Positions 15,712-38,000 of a DNA stretch of 40,408 nt are shown here, one piece after another. Under the pieces are notes generated by a model. The model saw nothing but the letters and a program-made list of their open reading frames with translations. It ran no database searches and was not told where the DNA came from. This stretch comes from a virus (taxonomy: Duplodnaviria > Heunggongvirae > Uroviricota > Caudoviricetes). Numbering within the stretch: position 1 is the first letter of the stretch; every line of letters starts with the position of its first letter. Where the stretch lies: IMG/VR virus record IMGVR_UViG_2529292759_000002, positions 1 to 40,408 of that record. One strand, written 5' to 3'. The position numbers were made by a program, and so were the translations under genes.

Positions 15712-15788
15712 TGGCGTGGCATGCAGGATTCGAACCTGCGACCAACCGCTTAGAAGGCGGTTGCTCTGTCCAACTGAGCTAATGCCAC
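15712..15788 (-). tRNA. tRNA-Arg (anticodon UCU), argU-like
   Basis: Hand-folded cloverleaf: acceptor GTGGCAT/ATGCCAC, D-stem GCTC/GAGC, anticodon stem ACCGC/GCGGT with loop CTTCTAA, T-arm GCAGG-TTCGAAT-CCTGC, encoded CCA; 77 nt. Confidence 0.85.
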
Positions 15789-33492: not shown

Positions 33493-33565
33493 TAGTACGC
33501 TATTCACCCCCAGTCTGCAATCTGTACAGAATTATTTAAAGGCACATCCCTGTGCCGCCGTTCTG

Positions 33566-34261
33566 TCAGAAGAACCCTGCCTTGTCGTTGATGTACTCCG
33601 CGTGGGTCTGGATATCACGCAGGCATTTGCTCACACCGACGATGTAGCAGAACATGGTGGTCAGTTCCGCCGCCGCGCCCGATACGTCGTGCCCGTCTTC
33701 CTGTAACTGGTTCAGCAGATTCATCAGCAGTGAGTTCTCCGTCAGGCCGAGAACACCAGACGGCGAATGAATCAGGCTACGGTAGCCGGGCTTCAGTGGG
33801 GCACTGTAGGTTTTGTTCTCTATCTTCATCGCCTGCATTACTGCTGACGCCGTGGCGTTGGCTACCTGGTCGGCAACCATCTTTATGCGTTCTTCCTGCG
33901 GGAGCGAGTTTTTAATGTAACTTCCGGTGCGGCGGATCTGAGGAAGAACCTCACCTGTAACCCATTTACGAAAGCGGTAGGGGATAGTGCCTGGTGTCAC
34001 TGCGTCGCGGCAGCGGAGGATCAGTGTGTAGAGGCCTGACTCGGAGATGATGATCGATTCTTGCTCACCGCCAGGGGTGTCGGTTGAAGCGACGCCCTTC
34101 TCATCATCATCAAGTTTTCGAACAGCATCTCGATGGTTTGCTATGCCTATAGCCCGACAAACATCTGAAGCGATAAACCATGGCTCACCATTAATGACGA
34201 TTACCCGTATATCGGCTTGGGATTCGAAAGAAAAAATGGACGTGCTTTTTGTAGCTGTCAT
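33566..34261 (-). CDS. Bro-N / KilA-N domain antirepressor (Ant-like)
   Basis: 231 aa; N-terminal pattern IRVIVINGEPWFIASDVCRAIGIANHRDAVRKL...ESGLYTLILR typical of Bro-N antirepressors; C-terminal domain paralogous to the small upstream gene. Confidence 0.75.
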   Translation of the reverse strand: MTATKSTSIFSFESQADIRVIVINGEPWFIASDVCRAIGIANHRDAVRKLDDDEKGVASTDTPGGEQESIIISESGLYTLILRCRDAVTPGTIPYRFRKWVTGEVLPQIRRTGSYIKNSLPQEERIKMVADQVANATASAVMQAMKIENKTYSAPLKPGYRSLIHSPSGVLGLTENSLLMNLLNQLQEDGHDVSGAAAELTTMFCYIVGVSKCLRDIQTHAEYINDKAGFF

Positions 34262-34418
34262 AGTGGTTACCTTTTAGTCTGGTTAATCACCACTACCGAC
34301 GCCAATCGGTTGGTGGTGAACTGTGCAGGGTTGGCGTAACCGGCTAAAAGGACCCGGCGCACCTTTCGGTGCCCCCACACAGCCCACCATAATACGAATG
34401 TGGCCGTGCTATACGCAT

Positions 34419-34438
34419 AAAAAAACCGCTTGCGCGGT
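34419..34438 (-). terminator. Intrinsic terminator between the small SOS-box gene and the antirepressor gene
   Basis: Minus-strand ACCGCGCAAGCGGT hairpin followed by TTTTTTT. Confidence 0.55.
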
Positions 34439-34530
34439 GAATGCGCCTTTTAGTAATCCGGGACGCCAATCCCGGCACTGGATTTTGCCAGTGCTCGATT
34501 ACTATGGCACAAGAGGAGTGCGTTGTAAAT

Positions 34531-34545
34531 TTACCGCAAAGGTAA
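34531..34545. promoter_or_regulatory. 15-bp palindrome (TTACCGCAAAGGTAA) in the antirepressor upstream region
   Basis: Perfect site between the stop of the small gene and the terminator/leader of the antirepressor gene. Confidence 0.45.
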
Positions 34546-34576
34546 ATATAAGCACTCCATTTGGTGATTGCAAACC

Positions 34577-34834
34577 TTATCTGGTTTGTTTTCGTAATTG
34601 TTCGGCACAATAGTCGAGATGTGTTTGCAGATCCTGCATAGACATCTGTGAGCTGGTGACGTAGTTAATCAGTGCAGTCAGTTCGGCAAGTGGGCCATCG
34701 ACATTAAATCCATCCTTATCGAGATCCCGGAGTAATTTCATCAAGTGCGATCCCTCCACCAGTGACCTGACGCCTCCCGGCGTGTGAATCCTTTCGGTAA
34801 ATCCGTCTTCCAGTGGATAGTGATACTGCTGCAT
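34577..34834 (-). CDS. Small protein (85 aa) homologous to the C-terminal domain of the downstream antirepressor; SOS-box-preceded
   Basis: Start taken at the internal ATG (MQQYHYPLEDG...) because a LexA-type box and a palindromic site lie inside the longer ORF; GGAG Shine-Dalgarno 8 nt upstream; shared pattern IH.P.GV..L.E.S.LM.LL..L..DG..V.G...ELT...Y...L.D.QTH..Y with Ant residues about 155-225. Confidence 0.6.
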   Translation of the reverse strand: MQQYHYPLEDGFTERIHTPGGVRSLVEGSHLMKLLRDLDKDGFNVDGPLAELTALINYVTSSQMSMQDLQTHLDYCAEQLRKQTR

Positions 34835-34853
34835 CTTATCTTCTCCATGCAAT

Positions 34854-34873
34854 AACTGTATATTTATACAGTA
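34854..34873. promoter_or_regulatory. LexA (SOS) box
   Basis: AACTGTATATTTATACAGTA: CTGT-N8-ACAG with AT-rich spacer, 18/20 to the E. coli consensus; about 22 bp upstream of the small gene start. Confidence 0.75.
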
Positions 34874-34910
34874 GCAAATAATTTGTTTGCTATCCAGCAC
34901 GTTTTGCAAA

Positions 34911-34925
34911 TTACCTGAAAGGTAA
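34911..34925. promoter_or_regulatory. 15-bp palindrome (TTACCTGAAAGGTAA) upstream of the SOS box
   Basis: Perfect site about 40 bp upstream of the LexA box on the transcribed strand. Confidence 0.5.
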
Positions 34926-35029
34926 TATCTATTCGTATTTACAGCCTTTCTATCCATATGTGGTTTTCCAGGTAATAGAATAACCAGATATGCGGCGCAA
35001 CGGGTGCTGCGACTATCTGGAGATTTAAC

Positions 35030-38000
35030 ATGACGGTCTCAACCGAAGTTGACCACAACGAATACACCGGTAACGGCGTTACGACATCGTTTCCGTATAC
35101 TTTTCGAATTTTCAGAAAATCAGACCTGGTTGTTCAGGTGTCTGACCTGAACGGAAACGTAACAGAATTGGTTCTGGATACCGGTTATACGGTAACTGGG
35201 GCGGGCACTTATAGTGGCGGTTCTGTGGTTCTTCCGTCTCCGCTTGCTACTGGATGGCGAATTACGATAGATCGTGTGCTTGATGTAGTGCAGGAGACAG
35301 ACCTTCGCAATCAGGGAAAATTTTTCCCCGAAGTGCATGAAGATGCCTTTGACTACCTGACGATGCTGATCCAGCAATGTTTTGGGTGGTTCAGACGTGC
35401 ATTGATGAAACCATCTTTGCTTGCAAAATATTACGATGCAAAGCAAAACAAAATTTCTAACCTTGCAGATCCATCATTTGAGCAGGACGCTGTAAATAAT
35501 CGCTCAATGCGTAATTATGTCGATGCTGCAATCGCCGGGGTTGTTGGTGGTTTTGGTTGGTTTATTCAGTATGGTTCTGGGGCTGTGTACCGAACGTTCC
35601 AGGATAAAATGCGTGATGCTATTAGCCCCAAAGATTTTGGAGCTGTTGGTGATGGTATAAATGACGATTCCACTGCAATAAGCGCGTGCCTTGAAGCCTC
35701 ATCTCCAGGTTATAAAATTGACGGATTAGGGCTTACTCTTAAAGTATCAACTCTTCCGGATGTCAGTCGATTTAAAAATGCTCGTTTTTTATTTGAGAGA
35801 ATACCGGGCCAGCCTCTTTTTTATGCTTCTGAAGATTTTATCCAGGGAGAGTTATTTAAAATTACAGATACACCGTGGTACAACGCCTGGACGCAGGATA
35901 AAACGTTTGTATATGACAATGTCATCTATGCGCCTTTTATGGCTGGAGACCGCCATGGTGTAAATAACCTCCATGTTGCATGGGTTCGCTCAGGAGATGA
36001 CGGGAAGACCTGGACAACGCCGGAATGGCTTACAGATTTACATGAAAACTATCCCACAGTTAACTATCACTGCATGAGTATGGGGGTTGTCAGAAATCGC
36101 CTTTTTGCTGTAATTGAGACGCGGACCGTGAGCGGAAATAAACTGCAGGTTGCAGAGTTGTGGGATCGCCCAATGAGTCGCAGCCTTCGCGTTTATGGTG
36201 GTATAACGAAAGCAGCAAATCAGCAAGTCGCTTATATTCGCATTACTGATCACGGATTATTTGCTGGTGATTTTGTCAACTTCTCAAACTCTGGTGTTAC
36301 AGGTGTTACCGGGAATATGACGGTGACTACTGTTATTGATAAAAATACTTTTACAGTTACGACGCAAAATACCCAGGATGTGGATCAGAATAACGAGGGT
36401 AGATACTGGAGTTTTGGTACATCATTTCACTCGTCACCATGGAGAAAAACCAGTCTTGGAACTATTCCTTCTTTTGTTGACGGAAGCACTCCTGTTACTG
36501 AGATTCACAGTTTTGCGACGATTAGCGATAACAGTTTTGCTGTTGGCTACCATAATGGTGATATTGGTCCACGCGAGCTTGGGATACTCTATTTCTCTGA
36601 TGCTTTCGGTTCTCCTGGTAGCTTTGTTCGCAGACGCATACCTGCAGAATATGAGGCGAATGCATCTGAGCCATGTGTAAAATATTATGATGGCATTCTG
36701 TATCTGACGACCAGGGGGACATTAAGTACTCAACCCGGTAGTTCATTGCACAGAAGCTCTGATTTAGGTACATCATGGAATTCTCTTCGCTTCCCAAATA
36801 ATGTTCATCACTCAAACCTTCCTTTTGCCAAAGTTGGCGATGAGCTGATTATTTTTGGCAGTGAGCGCGCATTTGGTGAGTGGGAAGGAGGAGAACCTGA
36901 TAACCGTTATGCAGGAAACTATCCAAGAACATTTATGACCAGAGTTAACGTCAATGAGTGGAGTCTGGATAATGTAGAGTGGGTTAATGTTACTGATCAG
37001 ATTTATCAGGGCGGAATAGTTAACTCTGCGGTTGGTGTTGGTTCAGTTTGTATCAAAGACAACTGGCTGTACTACATTTTCGGTGGGGAAGACTTTCTAA
37101 ACCCATGGAGCATAGGGGATAACAACAGAAAATATCCTTATGTTCACGATGGTCACCCGGCTGATTTGTATTGTTTCAGGGTGAAAATTAAACAGGAAGA
37201 ATTTGTTTCAAGGGATTTTGTCTACGGAGCCACTCCTAACAGAACGCTTCCTACTTTTATGTCGACGTCAGGCGTGAGGACGGTTCCTGTACCCGTTGAT
37301 TTCACAGATGATGTTGCCGTCCAGTCACTGACTGTCCATGCAGGTACATCAGGACAAGTTCGCGCGGAAGTCAAACTTGAGGGTAATTACGCCATTATTG
37401 CGAAGAAAGTACCGTCTGATGATGTTACCGCTCAGAGATTAATCGTTAGCGGCGGTGAAACAACGTCTTCAGCAGATGGTGCAATGATAACGTTGCATGG
37501 TTCCGGAAGCAGTACTCCACGTCGCGCGGTATATAACGCACTCGAACATCTTTTTGAGAACGGAGATGTTAAACCTTATCTTGATAATGTAAATGCTCTT
37601 GGTGGTCCGGGAAACAGGTTCTCGACAGTTTATCTTGGCTCCAATCCTGTGGTTACCAGTGACGGAACATTAAAGACAGAGCCGGTCTCTCCTGACGAAG
37701 CATTGCTGGATGCCTGGGGTGACGTCAGGTATATCGCTTATAAATGGCTGAACGCTGTCGCTATAAAGGGGGAAGAAGGGGCGAGGATACATCATGGTGT
37801 AATCGCGCAGCAACTTCGTGATGTTCTTATTTCTCACGGACTCATGGAAGAAGAAAGCACAACATGCCGCTATGCCTTTCTTTGCTATGACGATTATCCC
37901 GCAGTATATGATGACGTCATTACTGGCCAAAGGGAAATGCCGCTGACTGATAATGACGGGAGCATCATTGTTGATGAGGATGATAATCCAGTGATGGTAA

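What the first reader, a model, noticed from the sequence alone, without database searches (positions are those of the whole stretch)
34262..34576. Structured 315-bp non-coding stretch between the small SOS-box gene and the antirepressor gene
On the minus strand the region contains, in order, a palindromic site, two hairpins (CACTGG...CCAGTG and CCGGG...CCCGG), an intrinsic terminator, and then about 130 nt of leader with further inverted repeats (for example CACCAC...GTGGTG and GGCACC...GGTGCGCC) before the antirepressor Shine-Dalgarno. This looks like a 3'UTR-derived small RNA and/or a regulated leader controlling antirepressor translation, by analogy with the antisense RNA that controls ant in P22.
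Basis: seen in the sequence. Interest (0 to 1): 0.5.

Follow-up and report, generated by a model that had tools for sequence, protein, structure and literature searches.

The report
IsrK and C4 antirepressor-control RNAs
The structured non-coding stretch is a textbook phage "immunity" module, a small decoy RNA (IsrK) followed by the C4 antisense RNA of the phage P1/P7 type, which blocks the ribosome-binding site of the antirepressor gene just downstream; it is real but already known.

Summary
The region is not new. On the minus strand it matches two curated Rfam families far above threshold: isrK (34494-34419, 77.9 bits) and C4 antisense RNA (34394-34309, 77.7 bits).

The order of parts copies the annotated P1 immI region: repressor-operator-like palindrome, promoter, a1/b1 sites, terminator, C4, a2/b2 sites, antirepressor gene. 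The C4 loop CCUUUUAG is complementary to CUAAAAGG at the ant Shine-Dalgarno sequence and to a second copy in IsrK. The C4 bulge ACGCCAA is complementary to UUGGCGU in the leader and in an IsrK hairpin loop. Across 60 distinct homologous modules these elements vary, and both target sets follow them.

The right analogue is therefore P1/P7 c4 and Gifsy-1 IsrK, not the P22 sar RNA. The "small SOS-box gene" is itself an antirepressor, a homologue of SPC32H Ant (PDB 5D50).

Side findings:
- The palindrome is one of 14 TTACC-N5-GGTAA sites, probably Rep operators.

The parts
34529..34547 (-). Palindrome ATTTACC-N5-GGTAAAT. Predicted operator of the phage repressor Rep, overlapping by one base the -35 hexamer of the isrK promoter.
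   Evidence: TTACC-N5-GGTAA occurs 14 times in the window against 0.79 expected. Sites flank the rep gene on both sides. The arms are conserved while the 5-bp spacer differs in window, phiV10 and Tyrion. Rep is a homologue of SPC32H Rep. Binding itself is inferred.
34501..34529 (-). Promoter-like site for isrK/C4: -35 TTTACA, 17-nt spacer, extended -10 TGcCATAGT. Predicted start near 34494.
   Evidence: Promoter scan. The -10 is invariant in phiV10 and Tyrion. The equivalent hexamer in P1 is the annotated P51b -10.
34419..34494 (-). IsrK sRNA, equivalent to the a1/b1 leader of the C4 operon. It has two 5' hairpins and a Rho-independent terminator. a1 (UUGGCGU, 34469-34463) sits in the loop of hairpin 2. 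b1 (CUAAAAGG, 34453-34446) is single-stranded.
   Evidence: Rfam RF01394, 77.9 bits against a gathering score of 50. Terminator scan. Fold. 7 of 15 pairs show compensatory changes in 13 homologues.
34309..34394 (-). C4 antisense RNA. By homology with the P1 annotation the mature form is about 34388-34312 (77 nt). The b' loop CCUUUUAG is at 34351-34344 and the a' bulge ACGCCAA at 34337-34331.
   Evidence: Rfam RF01695, 77.7 bits against a gathering score of 45. z = -4.70. 11 of 27 pairs are compensatory. The P1 c4 feature lies 6 nt inside the 5' end and 3 nt inside the 3' end of the Rfam hit.
34299..34305 (-). a2 target site UUGGCGU in the ant leader, complementary to C4 a'.
   Evidence: It covaries with a' across homologues.
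34287..34293 (-). Conserved element GUGGUGA between a2 and b2. It can pair with the 3' strand of the C4 closing stem (UCACCACC, 34319-34312), forming an alternative helix.
   Evidence: In 51 distinct sequences, 96.1% of cells are paired. 4 of 8 pairs changed on both sides (24 cells against 6.4 in shuffles, 0 of 500 shuffles as high). Slid controls gave 29-68%.
34270..34277 (-). b2 target site CUAAAAGG, which overlaps the Shine-Dalgarno sequence of the Bro-N antirepressor gene (ATG at 34261). It is complementary to the C4 b' loop.
   Evidence: In 55 of 60 modules the loop has an exact complement of at least 6 nt here, mostly ending 7-12 nt before the ATG.
33566..34261 (-). Regulated gene: a 231-aa antirepressor with an N-terminal Bro-N domain and a C-terminal domain homologous to SPC32H Ant.
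   Evidence: Pfam Bro-N, 2.3e-21. PHROG anti-repressor families. 5D50_E, E = 1e-13 over residues 150-226.
34577..34834 (-). Upstream neighbour: 85-aa Ant, an SPC32H-type antirepressor. A LexA box lies at 34873-34855 and another Rep-type palindrome at 34926-34910. No terminator lies between this gene and isrK.
   Evidence: 5D50_E, E = 4e-47. CTGT-N8-ACAG site. Coordinates. Terminator scan.

Best explanation
The stretch is a P1/P7 immI-type antisense-RNA control module for the downstream Bro-N antirepressor gene. It consists of an IsrK (a1/b1) leader RNA and a C4 antisense RNA.

Shown here:
- the two RNA genes and their folds;
- two C4 elements, the b' loop and the a' bulge, each exactly complementary to a pair of sites;
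- one pair (a2, b2) lies in the ant leader, with b2 on the Shine-Dalgarno sequence;
- the other pair (a1, b1) lies in IsrK;
- all of these covary across homologues.

Inferred from P1/P7 and Gifsy-1 work:
- Transcription starts near 34494 from a promoter abutted by a Rep-operator-like palindrome.
- Most transcripts stop at the IsrK terminator and yield the ~76-nt IsrK.
- Read-through transcripts carry C4, which is cut out (RNase P at the GGU, 34388) as a ~77-nt RNA.
- C4 pairs with a2 and b2 and blocks ribosome binding to ant, so antirepressor synthesis stays off.
- IsrK carries the same a and b sequences, so it competes for C4 and relieves the block. In Gifsy-1, IsrK supplied in trans activates translation of the homologous antirepressor.
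For: - Rfam gathering-level hits to isrK and C4 lie in tandem, about 24 nt apart. All 16 comparison loci show the same tandem, with c4-a1b1 in place of isrK in P1.
- The exact complementarities and their order a then b occur on both sides of C4. They are positionally identical to the a1, b1, a2 and b2 features annotated in the P1 record.
- Covariation: cognate C4/target sets beat permuted assignments in 0 of 100000 permutations for each of the four element/site combinations.
- In 60 distinct modules there are 37 loop and 19 bulge variants. Exact complements of at least 6 nt are found in 45-58 of 60, and the order is kept in 57-58 of 60.
- Structural covariation supports both RNAs.
- The literature states that b' occludes the RBS, that a' gives specificity, and that RNase P cleaves at a GGW motif (PMC5320573).
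- In Gifsy-1, IsrK in trans raises anrP translation about 140-fold, and an ~80-nt RNA (STnc1160) is processed from the read-through transcript (PMC4825925).
- The minimum-energy fold of the full read-through RNA pairs a1 with a' and b1 with b' in cis.
Against: - There are no expression data for this phage. The promoter, processing and repression are all inferred.
- P1 represses ant indirectly, through the translation of icd and Rho-dependent termination. Here there is no icd, and b2 sits directly on the ant SD.
- The c4-a1b1 model scores 43.1, just below its gathering score of 46.7.
- The Gifsy-1 authors explain IsrK action through translation of an ORF across the C4 region, not through titration of a C4 RNA. 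In their hands, co-expressing STnc1160 did not oppose IsrK.
- If Rep shuts off the promoter in lysogens, C4 could not act as a standing immunity factor as it does in P1.
Confidence: 0.85

Rival explanations
1. The Gifsy-1 model applies as published. The region acts mainly as an activating switch. The long isrK-uORF-ant mRNA folds into a translationally inactive form. Short IsrK pairs in trans with the C4-region sequence and opens it. A small ORF starting at the conserved AUG (34390) is then translated, and ant is turned on by translational coupling. No free C4 repressor is needed.
For: The experiments were done on a homologous module. The window has the conserved AUG and a 35-codon ORF (34390-34283) that ends inside the alternative-helix element, 22 nt before the ant ATG. 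The cis pairing of IsrK with the C4 region appears in the predicted fold.
Against: The ORF from that AUG runs from 8 to 260 codons across homologues. It stops inside C4 in Tyrion (the closest diverged relative), APSE-7, YpM_41, R12_5 and P1. It has no Pfam or NCBIfam match. The tight tracking of b2 at the SD by the C4 loop is what a trans-acting repressor predicts, and this model does not explain it.
Confidence: 0.3
2. A P22 sar-like system: a small RNA is transcribed from the plus strand across the ant ribosome-binding site and pairs with it by full complementarity.
For: The gene under control is an antirepressor, and hairpins are symmetric on both strands. The plus strand of the IsrK segment has z = -2.56.
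Against: No Rfam sar match appeared even at E<=10. The plus strand of the C4 segment does not fold significantly (z = -1.21 against -4.70). No promoter-like site was found on the plus strand in 33500-35200. G-U-containing covariation fits the minus strand.
Confidence: 0.02
3. The region encodes small proteins. ZX5 annotates the 37-aa ORF 34380-34267 as 'ash family protein', and there is also a 35-aa ORF at 34390-34283. The structures would be incidental.
For: The CDS is annotated in vB_EcoP_ZX5. PHROG 20442 gives a weak hit for the 35-aa ORF.
Against: There are no Pfam or NCBIfam matches. The reading frame is not conserved. The substitutions follow an RNA-pairing pattern. The Gifsy-1 authors also report that the nucleotide sequence is conserved but the amino-acid sequence is not.
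Confidence: 0.05
4. The region is only an insulator: a terminator and a structured leader that separate the LexA-controlled ant gene from the next gene, with no trans-acting RNA.
For: A strong intrinsic terminator is present.
Against: This does not explain the duplicated a and b sites, their complementarity to C4, or their three-way covariation.
Confidence: 0.05

Closest known systems
P1/P7 immI operon (c4 antisense RNA - icd - ant; Citron & Schuster 1990; annotated in NC_005856)
   Same: The order of parts is the same: repressor operator at the promoter, a1, b1, terminator-like hairpin, C4, a2, b2 at the RBS, antirepressor gene. The C4 fold is the same. The specificity-determining a' and b' elements are the same kind.
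   Different: There is no icd gene, and b2 covers the ant SD directly. The regulated protein is unrelated to P1 Ant1 (E = 0.11). The host phage is an epsilon15/phiV10-like podovirus (Uetakevirus), not a P1-like plasmid prophage. The operator matches this phage's own Rep-type palindrome, not a C1 site.
Gifsy-1 isrK-orf45-anrP locus of Salmonella (Hershko-Shalev et al. 2016, PMC4825925)
   Same: It has an IsrK sRNA with a leaky terminator, a read-through mRNA and an ~80-nt processed RNA downstream (STnc1160, at the C4 position), followed by an antirepressor gene. IsrK is complementary to the downstream RNA. The Rfam isrK model, named after the Salmonella sRNA, hits the window at 77.9 bits.
   Different: In Gifsy-1 the orf45 stop overlaps the anrP start (AUGA). 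Here the equivalent ORF ends 22 nt upstream and is not conserved. That paper does not cite the P1 c4 work (0 hits for 'Citron', 'immI' and 'phage P1').
P22 sar RNA / ant (immI of P22)
   Same: A small RNA limits translation of an antirepressor by pairing at its ribosome-binding site.
   Different: sar is a true cis-antisense transcript from the opposite strand. Here the regulator is on the same strand, pairs through two short loop elements, and comes with a decoy RNA.
SPC32H Rep-Ant-LexA antirepression system (PDB 5D50/5D4Z; Kim & Ryu 2013 and Kim et al. 2016, cited from memory because the papers are not held)
   Same: The window encodes close homologues of SPC32H Ant (E = 4e-47) and Rep (E = 4e-42), with a LexA box in front of ant.
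   Different: This concerns the neighbouring gene, not the RNA module. A Salmonella epsilon15-like relative (65FD) has ant but lacks the isrK-C4-Bro-N insertion.

Membership tests
C4 antisense RNA (Rfam RF01695) | Covariance-model score at or above the gathering threshold (45 bits) | tested here: met
   77.7 bits, E = 1.1e-13, full-length match 1-87.
C4 antisense RNA (Rfam RF01695) | Long closing stem enclosing two hairpins, supported by compensatory substitutions | tested here: met
   The minimum-energy fold equals the consensus fold, z = -4.70. 11 of 27 pairs are compensatory in 15 homologues.
C4 antisense RNA (Rfam RF01695) | Unpaired a' and b' elements complementary to a2 and b2 in the mRNA of the gene downstream, with b2 at the ribosome-binding site | tested here: met
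   ACGCCAA pairs with UUGGCGU (34305-34299). CCUUUUAG pairs with CUAAAAGG (34277-34270), 8 nt before the ATG. Covariation.
C4 antisense RNA (Rfam RF01695) | Excised from a longer transcript by RNase P at a GGW motif, giving an RNA of about 77 nt | not testable with these tools
   GGU is present at 34388, and the homology-mapped mature length is 77 nt. No RNA data.
C4 antisense RNA (Rfam RF01695) | Represses antirepressor synthesis in vivo | not testable with these tools
   Needs reporter fusions or northern blots.
P1/P7 immI operon | icd ORF between b2 and ant, whose translation is needed for ant transcription | tested here: not met
   b2 lies directly on the ant SD and no ORF intervenes.
P1/P7 immI operon | a1/b1 copies of the target sites upstream of c4 | tested here: met
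   UUGGCGU at 34469-34463 and CUAAAAGG at 34453-34446, in the same order as P1 a1/b1.
P1/P7 immI operon | Operator of the primary phage repressor at the c4 promoter | tested here: inconclusive
   A palindrome of the type that flanks rep abuts the -35 hexamer. Binding was not tested.
isrK (Rfam RF01394) | Covariance-model score at or above the gathering threshold (50 bits) | tested here: met
   77.9 bits, E = 3.5e-15, full length.
isrK (Rfam RF01394) | Two 5' hairpins plus a Rho-independent terminator | tested here: met
   7 of 15 pairs are compensatory.
isrK (Gifsy-1 locus as described) | Downstream ORF (orf45) with its stop overlapping the antirepressor start, for translational coupling | tested here: not met
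   The ORF ends 22 nt upstream of the ATG and is truncated in relatives.
c4-a1b1 (Rfam RF03163) | Score at or above the gathering threshold (46.7 bits) | tested here: not met
   43.1 bits (E = 2.8e-9), overlapping the stronger isrK hit.
P22 sar antisense RNA | Transcript from the opposite strand overlapping the ant RBS | tested here: not met
   No Rfam hit at E<=10, no plus-strand promoter-like site, and no plus-strand fold signal over C4.

The most novel reading that the evidence does not exclude
The module may be more than a copy of P1 immI. It may be a three-part RNA switch wired in series behind the SOS response.

1. IsrK, and possibly the 3'UTR of the LexA-controlled ant mRNA that runs into it, acts as a target-mimic decoy for C4.
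2. A conserved, covarying alternative helix joins the 3' strand of C4 to an element between a2 and b2. This makes C4 maturation and ant-leader folding mutually exclusive.
3. The Rep-type operator at the isrK promoter means the second antirepressor, a Bro-N protein fused to an Ant-like domain, is released only after the first, LexA-controlled Ant has inactivated Rep. That would give a feed-forward lock on induction.

It would also unify the Gifsy-1 IsrK model and the P1 c4 model, which the literature I could read treats separately.
Probability: 0.25. Interest if true: 0.5.

Novelty: already known. Interest (0 to 1): 0.25.

Why it matters
As found, it matters little. It is a standard instance of two curated RNA families that control an antirepressor.

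It is useful for annotation. The RNAs are not annotated in phiV10 or ZX5, where a spurious 'ash family protein' CDS sits on C4. They are also missing from the listed RefSeq E. coli records, although 281 of 5426 complete genomes carry this arrangement.

The side observations could be worth a small follow-up by people who study prophage induction:
- the decoy sites covary with C4 as tightly as the real targets;
- there is a covarying alternative helix;
- two antirepressors with a shared domain sit under different controls.

Tried and rejected
- A gapped-pattern scan of viral contigs (GCCGG N{6,14} CCGGT N{5,8} AACCC) returned no answer twice. I replaced it with a fixed pattern on the conserved 5' strand. 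This biases the sample towards modules with that strand.
- RNAduplex energies between C4 cores and non-cognate targets did not discriminate well, because the conserved stems dominate. I used the longest exact complement of the variable elements instead.
- The first attempt at the alternative helix used a mis-indexed slice. It was redone and then tested on a MAFFT alignment made without reference to pairing.
- Pfam and NCBIfam gave nothing for the two small ORFs. I could not reproduce the 'ash family' label.
- The SPC32H papers (PMC4983836) and Hartmann 1995 (PMC41593) are not held. Statements about them rest on memory or on secondary citations.
- The promoter of the LexA-controlled ant gene was not resolved by the consensus scan.
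- I rejected the sar analogy, the protein-coding reading and chance inverted repeats. The reasons are given under the rival explanations.

Full report
**What is there**

Read on the minus strand, the window runs through the following features.
- An 85-codon gene at 34834-34577, preceded by a LexA box (TACTGTATAAATATACAGT, 34873-34855).
- A 315-nt gap.
- A 231-codon gene at 34261-33566.

- Palindrome ATTTACC-TTTGC-GGTAAAT, 34547-34529.
- Two hairpins, 34494-34475 and 34474-34459.
- An intrinsic terminator, 34438-34419.
- A GCACC/GGUGC hairpin, 34372-34359.
- The pair UCACCACC (34319-34312) and GUGGUGA (34293-34287).

**Identity**

An Rfam scan of the whole window gives three hits at gathering level. 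One is a tRNA elsewhere. The other two lie in this gap, on the minus strand.
- isrK (RF01394): 34494-34419, 77.9 bits against a threshold of 50, E = 3.5e-15.
- C4 antisense RNA (RF01695): 34394-34309, 77.7 bits against 45, E = 1.1e-13.

A permissive scan adds c4-a1b1 (RF03163) at 34507-34455. It scores 43.1 bits, just under its threshold of 46.7.

The C4 segment folds exactly as the family consensus does. Its z-score is -4.70 on the minus strand and -1.21 on the plus strand. The real ant leader is about 47 nt.

**Anatomy and pairing**

C4 exposes two unpaired elements. One is the hairpin-2 loop CCUUUUAG (34351-34344). The other is the bulge ACGCCAA (34337-34331).
- Their exact complements occur downstream in the order UUGGCGU (34305-34299) then CUAAAAGG (34277-34270). 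The second ends 8 nt before the ATG and covers the Shine-Dalgarno sequence.
- The same two complements occur upstream inside IsrK. UUGGCGU (34469-34463) lies in the loop of hairpin 2. CUAAAAGG (34453-34446) lies in the single-stranded stretch before the terminator.

The fully annotated P1 record shows the same plan:
- C1 operator Op51 at the promoter;
- promoter P51b;
- a1 (TTGACAG) and b1 (GTTAGTGC);
- a terminator-like hairpin;
- the c4 RNA;
- a2 (TTGACAG) and b2 (GTTAGTGA);
- icd and ant.

The sites I found are positionally the P1 a1, b1, a2 and b2. Mapping the P1 c4 feature onto the Rfam hits places the mature window RNA at about 34388-34312. That is 77 nt, beginning with GGU, which is the reported RNase P motif.

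**Is the pairing functional?**

I collected 16 loci from phage records: phiV10, Tyrion, APSE-7, a Yersinia phage, several Stx phages, SfV, P1 and others. All carry the isrK/C4 tandem at gathering level, except that isrK is replaced by c4-a1b1 in P1 and missing in SW-37.

The C4 loop and bulge differ between phages, and both target sets change with them. For each of the four element/site combinations, none of 100000 random re-assignments of C4s to targets reaches the observed complementarity.

I then added C4 copies from IMG/VR contigs, found with my own covariance model. This gave 60 distinct modules with 37 loop variants and 19 bulge variants. Exact complements of at least 6 nt are present as follows.

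| C4 element and site | Modules with a complement |
|---|---|
| Loop, downstream (b2) | 55 of 60 |
| Loop, upstream (b1) | 45 of 60 |
| Bulge, downstream (a2) | 58 of 60 |
| Bulge, upstream (a1) | 57 of 60 |

The order a then b is kept in 57-58 of 60. The b2 site mostly ends 7-12 nt before the start codon. RNAalifold finds compensatory changes at 11 of 27 C4 pairs and at 7 of 15 IsrK pairs.

**Promoter and palindrome**

A promoter-like site with -35 TTTACA and extended -10 TGcCATAGT (34529-34501) ends 7 nt before the IsrK 5' end. The -10 is invariant in phiV10 and Tyrion. In the loci I read by eye, a -10-like hexamer lies 6 nt before hairpin 1. In P1 that hexamer is the annotated P51b -10.

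Its core, TTACC-N5-GGTAA, occurs 14 times in the window against 0.79 expected. Pairs of sites lie on both sides of the repressor gene at 6593-6009, which encodes a homologue of SPC32H Rep (E = 4e-42). In three phages the arms are conserved while the 5-bp spacer differs. I therefore infer that it is a Rep operator. Binding was not tested.

**Neighbours**

The 'small SOS-box gene' encodes a close homologue of the SPC32H antirepressor Ant (PDB 5D50_E, E = 4e-47).

The downstream protein has a Bro-N domain. It also has a C-terminal domain homologous to that same Ant: 42% identity to the small protein and E = 1e-13 against 5D50_E. It is unrelated to P1 Ant1.

A Salmonella epsilon15-like relative, 65FD, has ant followed directly by the convergent membrane-protein gene. 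The isrK-C4-Bro-N unit is therefore an inserted module in the phiV10, ZX5, TL-2011b and Tyrion branch.

**Mechanism**

The shown parts are the RNAs, their folds, the complementarities and the covariation.

The following steps are inferred from P1/P7 and from Gifsy-1.
- Most transcripts end as IsrK.
- Read-through yields C4.
- C4 blocks the ant ribosome-binding site through b'/b2, with a'/a2 adding specificity.
- IsrK carries mimic sites and counteracts C4.

The predicted fold of the full read-through RNA pairs a1 with a' and b1 with b' in cis. This corresponds to the 'structure A' described for Gifsy-1.

The Gifsy-1 paper explains activation through translation of an ORF across the C4 region. 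Here that ORF (34390-34283) is not conserved. It ranges from 8 to 260 codons and stops inside C4 in Tyrion, APSE-7, P1 and others. I therefore rank that model second for this locus.

**The CACCAC...GTGGTG repeat**

The 3' strand of the C4 closing stem plus two tail bases (UCACCACC) can pair with a conserved element between a2 and b2 (GUGGUGA). I tested this on a MAFFT alignment of 51 distinct sequences made without reference to pairing.
- 96.1% of cells pair.
- 4 of the 8 pairs show changes on both sides, in 24 cells. Shuffles gave 6.4 +/- 1.9, and 0 of 500 reached the observed value.
- Slid controls pair at only 29-68%.

This helix and the C4 closing stem exclude each other. I did not find it described, but I could not read the primary P1 papers. 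Its function is open. It may be a switch between precursor folding and processing.

**Comparison and verdict**

The region is a regular member of the C4 and isrK families, and it works like P1/P7 immI without icd. It is not sar-like: there is no sar hit, no plus-strand promoter-like site, and no plus-strand fold over C4.

The records I inspected do not annotate the RNAs.
- phiV10 notes a terminator and a 'similar to SF0880' feature.
- ZX5 places an 'ash family protein' CDS on C4.
- The RefSeq E. coli genomes listed show only the two flanking proteins. 281 of 5426 genomes carry the arrangement over at least 80% of the query.

The finding is real, well explained and already known in kind. Its interest is low, with modest added value from the side observations.

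Noticed in passing
window 151, 5875, 5937, 6649, 6697, 8956, 9018, 12542, 12560, 15493, 16111, 33478, 34531, 34911: The palindrome TTACC-N5-GGTAA occurs 14 times (10 perfect) against 0.79 expected. Pairs flank the rep gene (6593-6009), and single sites lie at the isrK promoter, upstream of the LexA-controlled ant gene, downstream of the Bro-N gene and before the integrase gene. It looks like a widely scattered operator set for the SPC32H-type Rep, reminiscent of the many C1 operators of P1.
   Followed up: partly
window 34834-34577 and 34261-33566 (minus strand): There are two antirepressor genes in tandem. The first is an 85-aa SPC32H-type Ant behind a LexA box. The second is a Bro-N protein whose C-terminal 80 residues are 42% identical to that Ant and which lies behind the C4 module. 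One Rep-binding domain may therefore be under two different controls.
   Followed up: partly
window 34319-34312 with 34293-34287; alignment A4: A covarying alternative helix links the 3' strand of C4 to a conserved element between a2 and b2. It excludes the C4 closing stem. 96.1% of cells pair in 51 distinct sequences, and 4 of 8 pairs have changes on both sides. Its function is unknown.
   Followed up: yes
L018 (Salmonella phage 65FD) compared with window 34576-33566: Salmonella epsilon15-like phages have the small ant gene but lack the isrK-C4-Bro-N unit. It is an inserted module in the E. coli and Enterobacter branch.
   Followed up: partly
L003/L019 (vB_EcoP_ZX5) 1779-1892; window 34380-34267: A CDS called 'ash family protein' is annotated directly on the C4 RNA. 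Pfam and NCBIfam do not support it, and the frame is not conserved. The RefSeq E. coli genomes listed show no ncRNA feature here, although 281 of 5426 carry the arrangement.
   Followed up: yes
L050 9709-11108; also L040, L041, L089, L026, L087, L072: Some IMG/VR viral contigs carry two or three C4 copies about 656 nt apart, with different a' and b' elements. These are tandem arrays of C4-controlled cassettes.
   Followed up: no
literature: PMC4825925 compared with the P1 record NC_005856: The Gifsy-1 IsrK paper has no mention of 'Citron', 'immI' or 'phage P1'. Yet IsrK corresponds to the a1/b1 leader, and the ~80-nt STnc1160 lies at the C4 position. A 2025 review also lists IsrK and c4 as separate systems.
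   Followed up: partly
window 34558-34552 and 34521-34515 (minus strand): An outer inverted repeat, GGAGTGC...GCACTCC, brackets the operator palindrome and the -35 hexamer. It is conserved in phiV10 but not in Tyrion.
   Followed up: no
window 15712-15788 (minus strand): A tRNA-Arg(TCT) gene lies inside the phage genome.
   Followed up: no
L007 (Salmonella phage SW-37) 1717-1791: An isrJ sRNA (RF01393, 101.7 bits) lies about 650 nt downstream of the C4 copy. The isrK hit is missing at gathering level in this phage.
   Followed up: no
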